In this document: piece after piece, positions 15,401 through 24,400 of the stretch
How the letters are laid out: every line of letters starts with the position of its first letter
How positions within the stretch are numbered: position 1 is the stretch's first letter
Source: Trypanosoma brucei
Lineage: Eukaryota
Assembly: GCA_000002445.1 (NCBI GenBank)
Contig: CH464491.1
Coordinates: 4,768,001-4,832,000 of the forward strand
DNA: 64,000 nt
Direction of reading: 5' to 3'
Position numbers: made by a program

Positions 15401-18400
15401 AGGTTAATTCTCTGTCATATTTGTTATGTCACTTACTTCTTCATCTTGAAGGAATACGGCACTCACACACACTAAATGTAATGGGAACGGCAATAGTAAA
15501 GTTTCTAAGATACAAAATTTCATTCCCTTAATTTACTTAAAATTTTTAAGAAGTTTAAAATAAAATCATAGCAAACAAAAGAAAAAAGTCTAATGAGTCA
15601 CTAATGTGTTTACATAAGCAATCCATTGACAGTTTTATGATTCTGTTGTTGAATATATATGCTACGTGTTGTTATTTTTTTTTGAGCACTCATCTACCGC
15701 TTGAGTAATCATATTCAGTCTCATATAGTACTGATACACACTAAACGCATACCAGTGCGTTTTGTACTCTTCACATATTTCCTCTGTGCATAGTTATGGG
15801 AATGGAAGTAGTTGCTTGCACTGATTAGTTCAGATATACTAGAAATTTTACCAGTTGCGTGCGCTAGCTATTCCAATTACACGCTTTCCATCATAGGACT
15901 CCCATCAGCGTGACGTTTAGAACTGCTTCTACTACTACTGCTCGCATCGTCTCTACCGCCGCGTCTATCCATTATATAATGAATTGTAGAGTCCAATATT
16001 CTCCTGTTAATGCTAATATATCACCATTTTACGTGTTATTCAGGGTGTGGCGCGGAGACTTTATATTGTCTCTACACAAGAATATCTCTCTTTCTCACTG
16101 TACCTTTATTATTTCCTTGTTTATAAGGTTTTCCATCATTATATTTATTTTTTGAAAACGTGTATGTTCTATATCTCTCAATTCATTTCTACACATCTCC
16201 AGTTGTCTCGTTTAACAGTTTCCCTTATGCTTTTTACTAACATACTCCCATTGAAACCATTTCATTTGGTCTTAACCACAAGTATTATTATAATATTCGT
16301 ATACACACTCTCACAACGCTCTCCTATCATTATCATCATTACTGCTCTTATTAAAATATTAGTATATACTCACACTCATAACACTTTCCTATTATTATTG
16401 TTGTTATAACCCTAACTAATTTTCGTAAACAAAAAATAAACAAAATTAGTAAAAGTTTCATAATAACACTCACTTTTATAACCTTGCGGCGAAATGGTAC
16501 GGGCTTACGTTTTTTCTCAGATTGATAACCTTTACCCCCTCTTTTATGATTCATTTAAGTCACCTGCAAGAGAGCATAAGTGTTGAGAGTATGTTTTTTT
16601 TTGTGAAATATCAAATTTACTTATTTTAATGCTTTCATCCTTCACGGGGGTAGAATGGTTGACCAGTGTCAAAACTTTTATAGAGTTTCCTCAACAAAAA
16701 GAGCGAACCTAGTTTTATTTTGATTTTCGACACGCTAGAACCCCAACGTAATATACAATGTGGATGGCTTTGTGATAATCGAAAATAGAAATATCATGGT
16801 TTATTTGAACCAAGAACGGAAAATGGATCTGGGATCGCTAAGACAATTGATGGTAAGCTCTACATAACCCCGAAACTCAGATTTTTTAAAGGCTATTTTG
16901 AAGAGGCGAGAGGAGCACTACGTGCAGAATGGGCGACATTAGAAGCTACAGAATCAGCACTTTATTATCAGTTTGAAAGTGCATGTGCACAACCCACCGA
17001 CGAAAATTTTCGAGTGTAACATGAATCAAATGAACAGCTGAGCGGGATGCAAAAGCAACTAAAACATATGGAATAATTAAATGCATAACGAGTAGCGTAC
17101 ATTGAGGTCCAGGCCTAAAAAATTGCTACGCTGCGGCAAAAATTGGTTATAACTGAATGTAAGAGAGATGACACAGGGAAGTGTCAGAAACAACAGAGCA
17201 AATCGGACACGTGGAAGGCCAAACATATAGATGAATGCGCATGGAAAGGTTGTTTCCCGCCGAAAGAAGTAACTTAACCTTTGTCACATAGGGTTTGACT
17301 TCGAGGGATCCAGGAGTTACGGGAAAGCGCATGGGGTATGCCTGGAGGAGTAAGCACTAAAGAAAAAATTCGGACCTTTGAGGGAGTGATGAAATATCTC
17401 CAGGGAAGAACGCCTGAACAATTGTTATCGGCGTATCAGTTCGTGTTTCCACCACCAACAACGTCACCGGGACAAGTATATACCGAGGCATGAAAAACTT
17501 CGCATCATGGGCATTGCGCCTGCACCAAGACGGCATATCGGAGGAACGCCCCCAACTAGGAAAACAATTGTATGATAAGGTGTGCACAGTACAAACGGTA
17601 AAAGACTACCCGGGGCTGAGGTTTAAAGACATGAAGGAAGCTATAGGATTCCCTATCAAAAGGGATGACATGTTCCTTCCGGCCTCTATGAAAGAGAAAC
17701 GACAACAACAACAACAAATCGGTGTCCCTCCGAGAAGGTCTCAATGTTTCACATGCGGACAATTGGGGCATTACAGCAATACTTGTGGGGTGTTCAAACA
17801 TAAACTAAACACACGTCAAAAAAGCGACATTCAGTTCAAGAAGCAATGAATTTGGGGTCCTTTAATATTTCCCTACCTGTATTCCATCACAAGGGAAAAA
17901 CCAACACAACGGAGAAAGTCATACACTGGAGGACGATAACAATTACCACTCCTCGTCGAAAAATGAGTTACCCGACACGGACGGGGACAGTAAGACTCTT
18001 ACGCGCAGAAAAGTCGACAGCAGCTCAACGTATGAGAGGAGCCTTTCAAGGGAGCTTGGAAATGCCAAATTGAAATTAAAAACATGCCACAAAGAGGGTT
18101 TCGGTAAACGAAGTCACGGTTATTCTAGCTTATACACACAATCCGCATGTTGTGACACTGGTGTCAGAAGCAAACAAAAAGTAGCAAAAAGGATGTGAAC
18201 ACGCACAACATGAGAACAGAAAGGGTCCATAATCCGAAAGTTCTATGTGTTTACATACAAACACGGATTACCGGCGGTCGAAAAGACAGTCCCCCTTTTT
18301 ATCGTAAGTTTGAAACTGGAAAAAAGCAGCGCAACACAGTACATAAGGACACTACTATCATTACTAGCCGCAGAGCATACACCTGCGTGAATGTTGTTTT

Positions 18401-21400: not shown

Positions 21401-24400
21401 CCTCGACACACGAAATAAATAAGCAAAACAAGAGATGCTGCACACAAGCCATATGCCAAAGCCGAACGCAGTCATTGTTGTAATGACGTCAAGTGGGAAA
21501 GAGAGCCAAACGGCAACTTGCAAATGCAGCGAAATAAGGATCGTTGCGAAACGACTTGGTGTGGACACCATGGGCGAAAGTTCACAGGCGCGGGAAACAC
21601 CGGCGCTAGATTCGGTGACGAGGCGTATCGTAAAAACCGTCACGCTATCGTGGCGAAGGCATAGGAATGACCACGATTCGGGCGAGAGAACTGGGAAGAG
21701 GTGCAAAATGTAAGGAAATTCTTGAGAGCGTGTGAATTCTGCAAAGGTAAAAAGGACAGGAGTCGTTGACATCGGGAACGGAAGGAAGACGCAGCTTTCA
21801 ACAGAATGCCGGAAGGCGCGAGCACAGCCAAACAAATGGCGCGACGAGCTGAGAAGGCTACTGGCCACACTCTGAAATGGAAAGCAGCAGCGAGGGTGGG
21901 GGGAAACGCGCAGGTGCAGAGGGTTTGGCTGGAAGAAGTCGAAAAGATGGTGAAACCCTCAGGAGTTAAAAGTGCTTGGAAAAGAACAAAGCGGAGAAAA
22001 TATCAGTAGCCGCGAGGGAGGAAAAGGCAGCGGCCGGTGTCTGATTGGTTTAGTTCGCGGCGCCATAATAACAACCCATATACTGACTTTCCGAGGAATA
22101 ATAACGATGACAGCGAAAAACTCTTTTCAAACCTTGTCTTCCGCAATTTCCTGTTATTTTCGTTCCTCCCACATCCCCTGTAGACGACCATAACTTGAGG
22201 TGAAAATCGATTACACATGGGACGTTCTCGCGTCATTCCTCGTACCGGCTATTTCCATCATGTACCGCGATGGCCATTGCACAGCACATCATCATCCGTT
22301 GGCAGATGTTGTGGCTGAATCCCGTGCCCGGCTGTTTTGAAACGTTACTTCGGCCACCGTATACCCGATTCCTCCTTTGTTATTGTTTTCGTTTGTGTAA
22401 AAACGTCGATACAGATGCAATTAGCAGCTCCAGTGCGAGAATTAAATCAACAGATCGTATTTCGTACTCGCTCGTTTGTTTTTTCTGCAAACCTTTCAAC
22501 GCATCAATCCCATCCTTTGCCAATCTCCACGCTTATGGACCCTTACGGGGCCGTGCCATATCAATGTTCCAACACCCGGTCATCACTGTGGGTTCCGCCT
22601 CCGCCTCTGATGATAACGTTTCGTGAAAAATGTGGCATTTACCCTTTTCTCGCGCAGTTATTTGCTTAGGTGATCCTTTTCGGCCGGGAGAGTTCCCCGG
22701 AATTCCGCTGCGACTCACCTGAGATCAGACCTGCGTTCTGCTCAACACCACCGATCTCAACATTGAGAGCGCTCTAAAGATACCGAAAGAATCATGTTTA
22801 TACACGTGGAGGACCACACCGATGCTTCCCACCATCCCGAAAACGGACGGTTTCGCCGCTTTCCCTTCTCCCCCTGGCAGTCCGTTACTGTCCGACTGCA
22901 GCAATCCTTAAGACGGGATGCGCGCGAACATTTAATCTTCCCCCCCTCTCGAAGATACACCGGATTCCGACATCGCAATGAGGTGTGTTCAACGCTCTGC
23001 CATGGGAGTTTGCTCATTAAACGAACCGGTCGAAGCGCTTCCCCAATTCACAGACAACTCAGATAAATGCACACTTTCATTAAACGTGTAGCAGAAAAAA
23101 TGACTAATGCTTGGCATGCTTCCGTCCAGCATGAAAGCTGCGTACCTTCTATCTCCCTTGATCATGCCGAAGGGTCCATCAGCTGGTTTCAAATATAAGC
23201 ACCGCCATGCCGCAGAAGTACGCAACAACAGGCAACTCTTCCGCATCATAATGCAATAACTTGTAGAGGATGAAAGAACCAAAATTCTGAGATTTTCCAA
23301 TCCTAGAGTTAACAATGGCAGCGTATGCTTGTGGAAAATCAGGACATTCCGGTATAACACGCTGTGTACGCCATAATTCAATTCCACTCCTTACAACATT
23401 CCATACGCGGAGCTCTTCTCTATGGATGAATATGTTTTTGCCACTCACCCCGGAAAACTTGGACTATTATCACCCCATTTGAGATGTCAGAACCATTGCT
23501 TCAACTTCTTCCCTGCACTCTGGTTTCTTCTCAACAGCTTCCTCAATTTCAGGGACAACATTAACTTCTTCATCCTTCCACATTACATCATCACCACGCG
23601 TTCCATCAACAAACTTCATCCCGAGCAGTTGAGTTTCGTTGTCCATTATAATGTGACTTCACTTTGCATTGCATACGGAGCCATATAAACTGAAAACATT
23701 ATCACCTCTTGCTTCACGTTCCCTCAGACGCTTTTCTCCCAGAATAAGTGTTTTTTTGTCCTGAAGCAAAATGTTGAGTATTGTTCTTGATGAAAATATT
23801 TGCTTTACTTTTAAAACTAATTCGGCTTCTTAGTGTTTCTTTGTAAAGGATACAGAAGCTTTATCGCAAAGGGATTCCTGTACTAAAGCACGCACATGGT
23901 TACTCAGATAAAACAATTATAAACCTCCAATAAAGTTCGGTAACCTTTCCTTACACATTTTTCTATCCAATGAAAATATTTCCACAGTGCTCTACTGCAG
24001 CATTTTGTGACCATTAAAAAAAAATAGTTTTGGCGCTTCCTCAGGTATTCACTGACATTTCCCCCTTTTCAACGCATGTTGATTAACAGATGCCTCAACA
24101 CTGTCACACCTTAGCGTTATTGAATCTATTTTCATGCCTCTAAGGACTATACAGCATGAGATTCTATTTTCAAATACATTAATTGATGCACGACATTTGG
24201 TATTTTATTCATTTCATCTGACTGTAGCACACGTGCCATTCTCTGAGTTCGCAAACACCACTGAGCTAATTCCGTGCAAATGTACACATGTGACTTCAAG
24301 GTAATATATGTTTATTACTGTTGTATTCTTTCGTATTTTTTTGTTGACTGCTGGTGCCCAGTAAGTTCCTGTCATAAAATATGTATCATCTTACAAGACA

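What the first reader, a model, noticed from the sequence alone, without database searches (positions are those of the whole stretch)
16650..22200. Non-ingi retroelement with a CCHC gag knuckle, RT and RNase H, in the order gag-unknown-RT-RH, embedded in the VSG array
The familiar T. brucei retroposons (ingi/RIME, SLACS) do not give this picture: ingi has no retroviral CX2CX4HX4C knuckle and begins with the conserved 5' signature, which this element lacks. A gag knuckle at 17.7 kb, ~1.3 kb of unassigned coding, then RT-like (19.3-19.9 kb) and RNase H (20.1-20.7 kb) matches the VIPER/DIRS-like tyrosine-recombinase elements of trypanosomatids. In those elements the recombinase precedes RT. It is heavily frameshifted, with at least 10 frame changes, so it is a fossil. 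Its presence and insertion site next to a 70-bp repeat block deserve a note.
Basis: partly seen in the sequence, partly recalled or inferred. Interest (0 to 1): 0.6.

Follow-up and report, generated by a model that had tools for sequence, protein, structure and literature searches.

The report
Dead VIPER retrotransposon in VSG array

Summary
On the + strand there is a gag-like pseudo-ORF (16703-17849) with a CX2CX4HX4C knuckle (17745-17786). RT (about 19064-20000) and RNase H (20261-20611) follow. About 10 frame changes and about 21 premature stops break the reading frames. The "unknown" 1.3 kb is a Cre-like tyrosine recombinase pseudo-ORF (18014-19011), so the order is gag-YR-RT/RH, the VIPER architecture. 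All three ORFs match published VIPER copies: the T. theileri copy NBCO01000004.1 and the T. b. gambiense chr6 copy. E-values run from 1e-37 to 1e-98. Ingi and SLACS RT/RH blocks show no similarity. Comparison with the chr6 copy (85% nucleotide identity, unrelated flanks) sets the element at about 16601-20713. The stretch 20714-22200 is therefore not part of it and remains unassigned. No terminal or split direct repeats survive. The window is T. b. brucei TREU927, where VIPER is described as low-copy, with every copy analysed in the 2019 survey scored as degenerated. Verdict: interpretation supported, element already known, low interest. One minor extra: six premature stops are shared with the unlinked chr6 copy, so their common progenitor was already defective.

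The parts
16601..20713 (+). Whole degenerate VIPER copy (about 4.11 kb)
   Evidence: It aligns with the VIPER copy on T. b. gambiense chr6 (L002 8668-12701). Identity is 85% over 16799-20713 and 66% over 16601-16899. Flanks are unrelated beyond both ends.
16601..16702 (+). 5' leader upstream of gag. The 5' boundary is uncertain by about 30-40 nt.
   Evidence: Low-identity (66%) homology with L002 8668 onward. The gag alignment with T. theileri starts at 16742.
16703..17849 (+). gag-like pseudo-ORF: coiled-coil-like N-terminal part, 2 frameshifts, about 9 premature stops, natural TGA stop at 17847
   Evidence: tblastn with the T. theileri VIPER gag (L001 6186-7433) gives a summed E of 1e-37 to 6e-40 over 16742-17846 in frames 2, 1 and 3. 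Stops were counted.
17745..17786 (+). CX2CX4HX4C zinc knuckle (CH-box) of gag, intact
   Evidence: Pfam zf-CCHC E=2e-4, above the gathering score. Coordinates. It aligns with the CH-box of T. theileri gag, CFRCGRVGHYSTTC.
18014..19011 (+). Catalytic positions kept: Arg I (18532-18567), Lys (18634-18660), His II (18901-18921), Tyr (18943-18960). The HxxR box reads HSIKK (R to K) and is out of frame at 18806-18841. About 3 frameshifts and about 9 premature stops.
   Evidence: tblastn with P0015 gives E=2e-85 at 56% identity. The A1 profile gives E=7.6e-60. A1 against the PDB hits Cre at E=2e-9. The fold search returns Cre/Xer/integrases. Motif coordinates.
18483..19063 (+). N-terminal extension of the RT/RH ORF, overlapping the YR ORF in another frame
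   Evidence: P0005 residues 8-74 match 18483-18689 in frame 3 (E=3e-6). The pol profile match starts at 18849 in frame 3. Overlapping YR and RT/RH ORFs are described for VIPER (PMC12278014).
19064..20000 (+). Reverse transcriptase domain, spread over three frames. Motif A is at 19560-19586. Motif C reads WIDN at 19781-19810.
   Evidence: The stitched translation hits T. theileri, T. grayi, A. deanei and L. pyrrhocoris proteins at E from 1e-137 to 1e-25. These carry weak RVT_1 matches. tblastn map. Profile hits. The fold search on a weak model returns retroviral and LTR-type RTs.
20261..20611 (+). RNase H domain. The catalytic Glu is replaced by Lys (AQCKARV at 20366-20386, against family consensus SQAEARA).
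   Evidence: Alignment A2. The homologue P0003 passes the Pfam RVT_3 gathering score (26.9 against 21.6 bits). The published A. deanei VIPER RH block matches at E=2e-22.
20678..20713 (+). pol stop codon (TAA at 20678-20680) and short 3' tail. Homology with the second copy ends here.

Best explanation
The locus is a dead, full-length-architecture copy of VIPER. VIPER belongs to the VIPER-like subgroup of DIRS-order tyrosine-recombinase retrotransposons. The copy sits in a subtelomeric VSG array of T. brucei brucei TREU927.

In an intact element the steps would be as follows (inferred from the family, not shown here):
1. The gag-like protein binds the element RNA through its CCHC knuckle.
2. RT/RNase H copies the RNA into double-stranded DNA.
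4. The Cre-like tyrosine recombinase inserts the circle by conservative site-specific recombination, without a target-site duplication.

This copy can do none of that. About 10 frameshifts and about 21 premature stops break all three ORFs. The RNase H catalytic Glu and the recombinase box-II Arg are substituted. No terminal repeats remain. It is inert sequence, at most a passive spacer or recombination substrate between a VSG cassette and an RHS pseudogene.
For: - Shown: ORF order gag (16703-17849), YR (18014-19011), RT/RH (to 20680) on one strand.
- Shown: each ORF is homologous to the T. theileri copy NBCO01000004.1, which Ribeiro et al. 2019 list as VIPER. E-values: gag 1e-37, YR family 2e-85 and 7.6e-60, pol 3e-98.
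- Shown: a second copy with the same termini and 85% identity sits on T. b. gambiense chr6. It is also in the published VIPER list as Tbg972_06_540613_556837.
- Shown: the YR family is a tyrosine recombinase family. The profile hits Cre at E=2e-9. R171, K202, H258, H288 and Y301 are nearly invariant and the box-II Arg is the consensus residue (TAHSIKRGA). The pLDDT-90 model matches Cre, Xer and integrases.
- Shown: homologues carry RVT_1 and RVT_3 signals, and the fold search returns CaMV, foamy virus, MMLV, HIV and Ty3 RTs.
- Shown: degeneracy counts.
- Shown: host identity. The ESAG1 ORF is 100% identical to EAN80659.1.
- Literature: VIPER is described in T. brucei at very low copy number (PMC6390901). 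All analysed T. brucei copies are scored 'degenerated' (PMC6681497, Additional files 1-2).
- Inferred: the transposition mechanism, from the DIRS/VIPER literature.
Against: - Pfam finds no RT, RNase H or integrase domain in the window's own ORFs or in stitched translations.
- Most homologues' RVT_1 hits fall just below the gathering score.
- The RT/RH profile has no significant PDB sequence hit (E=0.83).
- The RT/RH model is low confidence (pLDDT 56).
- No split direct repeats or other terminal repeats were found.
- I could not compare directly with the T. cruzi prototype or a Repbase T. brucei VIPER consensus.
Confidence: 0.95

Rival explanations
1. It is an unusual or degenerate member of the ingi/RIME/DIRE or SLACS/CRE non-LTR (LINE) families, the common T. 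brucei retroposons.
For: These are by far the most abundant retroelements in T. brucei (PMC6390901). An RHS ('retrotransposon hot spot') pseudogene lies 2.5 kb downstream.
Against: - Ingi RT, SLACS RT and ingi RH alignment blocks give no similarity to the stitched pol (best E 0.3) or to any place in the window.
- The published VIPER RH block matches at E=2e-22.
- There is no endonuclease hit.
- No poly(A) tail is visible at the 3' end in the sequence, and no target-site duplication is evident.
- A tyrosine recombinase and a gag knuckle are present, and LINEs of these families lack that combination.
Confidence: 0.01
2. It is the remnant of an LTR retrotransposon or retrovirus-like element (gag knuckle, RT, RNase H) that lost its LTRs, protease and integrase.
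For: The retroviral-type CCHC knuckle. The RT/RH model resembles retroviral, pararetroviral and Ty3 RTs.
Against: - No direct repeats flank or lie within 16.0-23.5 kb.
- The coding space between gag and RT is fully occupied by a Cre-like tyrosine recombinase. This leaves no room for a protease, and nothing follows RNase H where a DDE integrase would sit.
- No typical LTR elements have been reported in trypanosomatids (PMC12278014).
Confidence: 0.02
3. It is a copy of TATE, the sister YR retrotransposon of kinetoplastids, rather than VIPER.
For: TATE has the same gag-YR-RT/RH layout and shares the xIDN form of RT motif C.
Against: - All strong hits are to loci that the 2019 survey lists under VIPER.
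- The TATE RT block matches only a 13-residue motif (E=0.019).
- The survey found 0 TATE hits in any T. brucei genome, against 36 YR and 58 RT/RH VIPER hits in TREU927.
Confidence: 0.015
4. It is a domesticated VIPER-derived host gene, as reported at a syntenic locus in some Leishmania, Leptomonas and Crithidia species.
For: A VIPER domestication event has been proposed in other trypanosomatids (PMC5146736, abstract).
Against: The longest open stretch is 190 aa. About 21 premature stops and about 10 frameshifts break the ORFs. The subtelomeric location is not syntenic. Most lesions are private to this copy, as expected for neutral decay.
Confidence: 0.005

Closest known systems
VIPER copy on T. 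b. gambiense DAL972 chromosome 6 (FN554969.1, about 546.6-550.6 kb; listed as Tbg972_06_540613_556837 in Ribeiro et al. 2019)
   Same: Same element with the same 5' and 3' limits. Nucleotide identity is 85%. Both copies are degenerate. Six premature stops are shared.
   Different: It lies in a core-chromosome context with unrelated flanks. It carries a 108-nt deletion in the RT N-terminal region and its own set of frameshifts and stops.
T. theileri VIPER copy NBCO01000004.1:941135-957797 (Ribeiro et al. 2019, Additional file 2)
   Same: Same order: gag with CH-box, then YR, then RT/RH. Amino-acid identity is about 30-36% in gag and about 42% in pol. The intact YR homologue P0015, from a different T. 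theileri contig, is 56% identical. pol ends just after RNase H in both.
   Different: The T. theileri gag and RT/RH ORFs are open. The window copy is broken throughout.
T. cruzi VIPER (prototype; Vazquez 2000, Lorenzi 2006, Ribeiro 2019)
   Same: By the literature description: gag-like ORF with CH-box, YR, overlapping RT/RH, and no target-site duplication.
   Different: T. cruzi Dm28c copies are potentially autonomous. They carry split direct repeats (A1 ... B1-A2-B2), have a non-autonomous derivative (SIRE), and number hundreds of copies. None of that applies here. No direct sequence comparison was possible.
TATE and other DIRS-order elements (DIRS1, Ngaro, PAT)
   Same: Retrotransposons that use a tyrosine recombinase instead of a DDE integrase or endonuclease, with a similar ORF set.
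   Different: They form different clades. TATE is absent from T. brucei in the published survey. DIRS1-type elements have inverted terminal repeats.
Cre / Xer / phage integrases, and Crypton YRs
   Same: The VIPER YR shares their two-domain fold and catalytic residues.
   Different: Here the recombinase is part of a retroelement, and in this copy it is a pseudogene.

Membership tests
VIPER (VIPER-like subgroup, DIRS order) | Three coding regions on one strand in the order gag-like, tyrosine recombinase, RT/RNase H | tested here: met
   gag 16703-17849, YR 18014-19011, RT/RH to 20680
VIPER (VIPER-like subgroup, DIRS order) | Sequence homology of the ORFs to recognised VIPER copies | tested here: met
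   T. theileri NBCO01000004.1 copy: gag E=1e-37, pol profile E=3e-98. YR family E=7.6e-60. A. deanei VIPER RH block E=2e-22. Both reference loci are in the published VIPER list. The T. cruzi prototype was not available for comparison.
VIPER (VIPER-like subgroup, DIRS order) | Tyrosine recombinase with the R-K-H-R-H-Y catalytic set and Cre-like fold | tested here: met
   Family level. Window copy: R, K, H, His II and Tyr codons are recognisable, box-II Arg is replaced by Lys, and the ORF is broken by stops and frameshifts.
VIPER (VIPER-like subgroup, DIRS order) | RT followed by RNase H of the retroviral/LTR class, in an ORF overlapping the YR ORF | tested here: met
   RVT_1 and RVT_3 signals in homologues. 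The fold search returns CaMV, MMLV, HIV and Ty3 RTs, on a weak pLDDT-56 model. Overlap: P0005 N-terminus matches 18483-18689 in another frame, E=3e-6.
VIPER (VIPER-like subgroup, DIRS order) | CH-box (CX2CX4HX4C) in the gag-like protein (present in T. cruzi, T. theileri and L. pyrrhocoris copies; absent in some species) | tested here: met
   17745-17786; Pfam zf-CCHC E=2e-4
VIPER (VIPER-like subgroup, DIRS order) | Split direct repeats A1 ... B1-A2-B2. These characterise intact T. cruzi and C. fasciculata copies. They are not part of the original definition: VIPER was long described as lacking terminal repeats. | tested here: not met
   There are no direct or inverted repeats beyond chance-level 14-25-mers in 16.0-23.5 kb. 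The second copy ends at the same points. This fits a decayed copy. The paper also found no 5' repeat in T. theileri.
VIPER (VIPER-like subgroup, DIRS order) | No target-site duplication | tested here: inconclusive
   The flanks ...GTATGTTTTTTT and TAGTGGCGG... show no duplication. However, the 5' boundary is only known to about 30-40 nt.
ingi/RIME (and DIRE) | LINE-type RT with AP endonuclease, RNase H of the ingi type, poly(A) tail | tested here: not met
   Ingi RT and RH blocks: best E 0.3 against the stitched pol and no hit in the window. No endonuclease domain. No poly(A) visible at 20.7 kb.
ingi/RIME (and DIRE) | Conserved 5' 77-79-nt signature (Pr77) | not tested
SLACS/CRE | LINE-type RT; insertion in spliced-leader RNA genes | tested here: not met
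   SLACS RT block: best E 1.8. The context is a VSG array, not an SL array.
LTR retrotransposons (Ty3/gypsy, Ty1/copia, Bel-Pao) | Long terminal repeats, aspartic protease, DDE integrase | tested here: not met
   No flanking direct repeats. No RVP or rve hits. The gag-RT interval is filled by a tyrosine recombinase.
TATE | Homology to TATE gag, YR and RT/RH | tested here: not met
   The TATE RT block matches only a 13-residue motif (E=0.019). Only the RT block was tested. The published survey finds no TATE in T. brucei.

The most novel reading that the evidence does not exclude
The chr11 subtelomeric copy and the unlinked chr6 copy share six premature stops. Three of them are TGG-to-TGA changes at conserved Trp codons of the recombinase. 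The two copies also share identical element termini in unrelated flanks. The most novel reading is that the T. brucei-lineage VIPER family was spread from a master copy that was already ORF-defective. That would mean non-autonomous copies mobilised in trans by a now-lost autonomous VIPER. It would also make the family a compact 4.1-kb form without split direct repeats, with a gag that the 2019 tblastn survey (0 gag hits in T. brucei) did not detect.
Probability: 0.35. Interest if true: 0.25.

Novelty: already known. Interest (0 to 1): 0.12.

Why it matters
It matters little beyond annotation. VIPER was reported in T. brucei in 2006 and resurveyed in 2019 and 2025, and the analysed copies are described as degenerate. 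This copy can be masked and labelled as VIPER, 16601-20713. That prevents its ORF fragments from being called as hypothetical genes. P0001 and P0018 are such calls made on other copies. The copy also marks a boundary between a VSG cassette and an RHS pseudogene. Two modest additions come out of the analysis. First, T. brucei copies keep a recognisable gag with an intact CCHC knuckle. Second, their termini can be defined by comparing copies.

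Tried and rejected
- Pfam on 10 raw ORFs found only zf-CCHC. Pfam on stitched YR and RT/RH translations and on P0001 found nothing.
- The first homologue search, with the 190-aa RNase H ORF, returned a single T. brucei fragment. The stitched query was needed.
- The look-up of encoding contigs had no record for P0001, the ESAG1 ORF or the EAN80657 ORF. The window's chromosome coordinates are therefore unknown.
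- The single-sequence PDB and Pfam searches of the YR (P0015) were only suggestive (E=0.1 and 0.069). The 63-sequence profile was needed.
- The RT/RH profile against PDB sequences was not significant (E=0.83). The RT/RH structure model has pLDDT 56, so its fold matches are supportive only.
- Terminal repeats: self-BLAST and the repeat finder found none. TRF did not report the short 70-bp block.
- Rfam found nothing in 15.5-24.5 kb.
- Six-frame Pfam of 20.7-23.5 kb found only an RHS fragment. I could not identify 20714-23190.
- I considered a VSG fragment for the purine-rich 20.9-22.0 kb stretch and rejected it because there was no VSG domain hit.
- I considered an ingi insertion in the RHS pseudogene. 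There is no support for it: ingi RT and RH blocks do not match.

Full report
**Source of the window.** The ORF at 45472-46476 is 100% identical to ESAG1 protein EAN80659.1 / XP_829771.1 of T. brucei brucei TREU927. That protein sits on a 5.26-Mb record, probably chromosome 11 (the chromosome is my inference). VSG_B domains lie at 12.6-14.5 kb (-), 37.8-38.7 kb (+) and 49.2-50.9 kb (-). 70-bp-repeat-like blocks recur at 2.5, 9.3, 16.3, 49.0, 52.3, 58.6 and 62.6 kb. The VSG-array context is therefore real.

**The observation.** Between 17 and 22 kb the + strand switches to positive AT and GC skew.
- ORF 17490-17849 carries CFTCGQLGHYSNTC at 17745-17786, and Pfam zf-CCHC passes its cut-off.
- Pfam saw no RT, RNase H or integrase in any raw ORF or in my stitched translations.
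- The stitched RT/RH translation (19.3-20.68 kb, three frames) retrieved 13 trypanosomatid proteins at E from 1e-137 to 1e-25. They come from T. theileri, T. melophagium, T. grayi ('TcC31.12'), Angomonas deanei and Leptomonas pyrrhocoris.
- Several of these carry RVT_1 matches (E about 1e-6, just under the gathering score). P0003 carries an RVT_3 match above it.
- tblastn maps them onto 19064-20710 with five frame changes.
- A profile built without any T. brucei sequence hits the three + frames at E=3e-98, 7e-49 and 1e-16, and nowhere else in the window.
- A structure model of the T. theileri homologue is weak (pLDDT 56). Its best PDB matches are all retroviral, pararetroviral or Ty3 reverse transcriptases. 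I treat this as supportive only.

**The 'unknown' 1.3 kb.** By eye it contains ...LRLA*ITASRWEEIAQL..., ...ALPKTFKSD..., ...TAHSIKKG... and ...LGKHTDP*ELPQRTVRRYL..., which resemble the tyrosine-recombinase boxes.
- The stitched translation found an intact 319-aa T. theileri protein, P0015, at E=1e-76. Its source name, 'trans-sialidase', is a misnomer.
- An exhaustive HMMER search with P0015 found 636 relatives.
- In a 63-sequence alignment, R171, K202, H258, H288 and Y301 are nearly invariant, and the box-II Arg is the consensus residue (TAHSIKRGA).
- The profile hits Cre recombinase in the PDB at E=2e-9, aligned through Cre R173 and K201.
- Six members reach Pfam Phage_integrase.
- The AlphaFold model (pLDDT 90) gave 33 PDB matches at E<=0.001, all Cre/Tre, archaeal Xer or XerH; phage, transposon and integron integrases follow at E 1e-3 to 1e-2.
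- The same profile matches window 18142-19014 at E=7.6e-60, with the HxxR box displaced into another frame.

The order is therefore gag, YR, RT/RH.

**Link to VIPER.** The T. theileri locus that encodes the pol homologue P0005 is NBCO01000004.1:941269-959515 (L001). It has an open gag with a CH-box, YR fragments and an RT/RH ORF. Ribeiro et al. 2019 (PMC6681497, Additional file 2) list exactly this region as a VIPER copy with CHbox, RT_like and RNase_H_like domains. Its gag aligns to window 16742-17846 with a summed E of 1e-37. The same paper and two others state three things:
- VIPER is gag-like plus overlapping YR and RT/RH ORFs, and makes no target-site duplication.
- It was described in T. 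brucei by Lorenzi et al. 2006, at very low copy number.
- Every analysed T. brucei copy is 'degenerated'. TREU927 gave 36 YR, 58 RT/RH and 0 gag tblastn hits.

**Limits of the element.** P0018, a T. b. gambiense 'hypothetical protein', led to a second copy on chromosome 6 (L002). This copy is also in the published list as Tbg972_06_540613_556837.
- It aligns to window 16799-20713 at 85% identity.
- A lower-identity extension (66%) reaches back to 16601.
- At the 3' end homology stops abruptly at 20713, 33 nt after the pol stop codon. Flanks are unrelated on both sides.

The element is therefore about 16601-20713, or 4.1 kb. The stretch 20714-22200 in the finding is not part of it. That stretch is purine-rich and has no Pfam hit in six frames. 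It holds only one annotated ORF: a 125-aa minus-strand reading frame at 21395-21772, EAN80657.1, 'hypothetical protein, conserved'. I suspect this is an artefact of strand composition. Further on, an RHS pseudogene lies on the minus strand. It has RHS_N plus the first 46 positions of the P-loop domain and breaks off at about 23188. No terminal, split or inverted repeats exist in or around the element.

**State of the copy.** Along the homology path I count about 10 intra-ORF frame changes and 25 stops, 3 of which are natural ORF ends. One of the remaining 22, at 19694, is probably off the coding path.
- The RNase H Glu is Lys (AQCKARV against SQAEARA).
- The box-II Arg of the recombinase is Lys.
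- RT motif C reads WIDN, but that is the family consensus, not a lesion. TATE reads MIDN.
- Most indels and stops are private to one of the two copies.
- Six premature stops are shared (17275, 17296, 18211, 18529, 18628, 19686). This is far more than the fraction of one I would expect by chance (my rough estimate). It suggests a common progenitor that was already defective.

**Rivals.**
- Ingi RT, ingi RH and SLACS RT blocks, taken from the paper's supplementary alignments, show no similarity to the stitched pol or to the window (best E 0.3). The VIPER RH block matches at 2e-22.
- An LTR element is excluded. There are no LTRs, and the gag-RT interval is filled by a recombinase.
- TATE is excluded by the weak block match and by its published absence from T. 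brucei.
- A domesticated gene is excluded by the lesions.

**Verdict.** The object is a known, low-copy, degenerate retrotransposon family in a genome where it has already been catalogued. Interest is low.

Noticed in passing
window 17275, 17296, 18211, 18529, 18628, 19686 (and L002 9346, 9367, 10296, 10613, 10713, 11665): Six premature stop codons are shared between this copy and the unlinked T. b. gambiense chr6 VIPER copy. Three are TGA at conserved Trp positions of the recombinase. Most other lesions are private. This suggests both descend from an already defective progenitor that still spread to new loci.
   Followed up: partly
window 20714-23190: Unassigned sequence lies between the VIPER 3' end and the RHS pseudogene. 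The + strand is purine-rich over 20.9-22.04 kb. There is no Pfam hit in six frames, no repeat elsewhere in the window, and no similarity to ingi or SLACS blocks.
   Followed up: partly
window 21395-21772 (-): A 125-aa ORF on the pyrimidine-rich strand is annotated in TREU927 as 'hypothetical protein, conserved' (EAN80657.1 / Q380X4). It has no family hit and may be a spurious call favoured by strand composition.
   Followed up: partly
window about 23188-24000 (-): RHS pseudogene fragment: a complete RHS_N domain plus only positions 7-46 of the P-loop domain, then homology breaks off. What truncates it was not identified.
   Followed up: partly
window 19781-19810; alignment A2: RT motif C reads (V/T)WIDN instead of the usual YxDD. 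This holds in this copy and in all VIPER homologues from T. theileri, T. grayi, A. deanei and L. pyrrhocoris. A TATE sequence in the published alignment reads MIDN. It is a family trait, not a lesion of this copy.
   Followed up: partly
proteins P0015-P0017, P0002, P0008, P0010, P0012 (public databases): VIPER-derived ORFs in T. theileri and T. grayi carry misleading database names: 'trans-sialidase', 'target of rapamycin kinase 1', 'rab1 small GTP-binding protein'. T. brucei fragments are filed as uncharacterised proteins (P0001, P0018).
   Followed up: no
window 16260-16450: A short 70-bp-repeat block (about 2 units, minus-strand orientation) lies about 150 bp upstream of the VIPER 5' end. 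It belongs to the VSG pseudogene cassette at 12.6-14.5 kb (-). Similar blocks lie at 2.5, 9.3, 49.0, 52.3, 58.6 and 62.6 kb.
   Followed up: partly
window 31-46 kb: This stretch has opposite strand composition. It holds a + strand VSG_B ORF (37763-38665) and an intact ESAG1 gene (45472-46476), flanked by minus-strand VSG cassettes. The array therefore changes orientation twice within the window.
   Followed up: no
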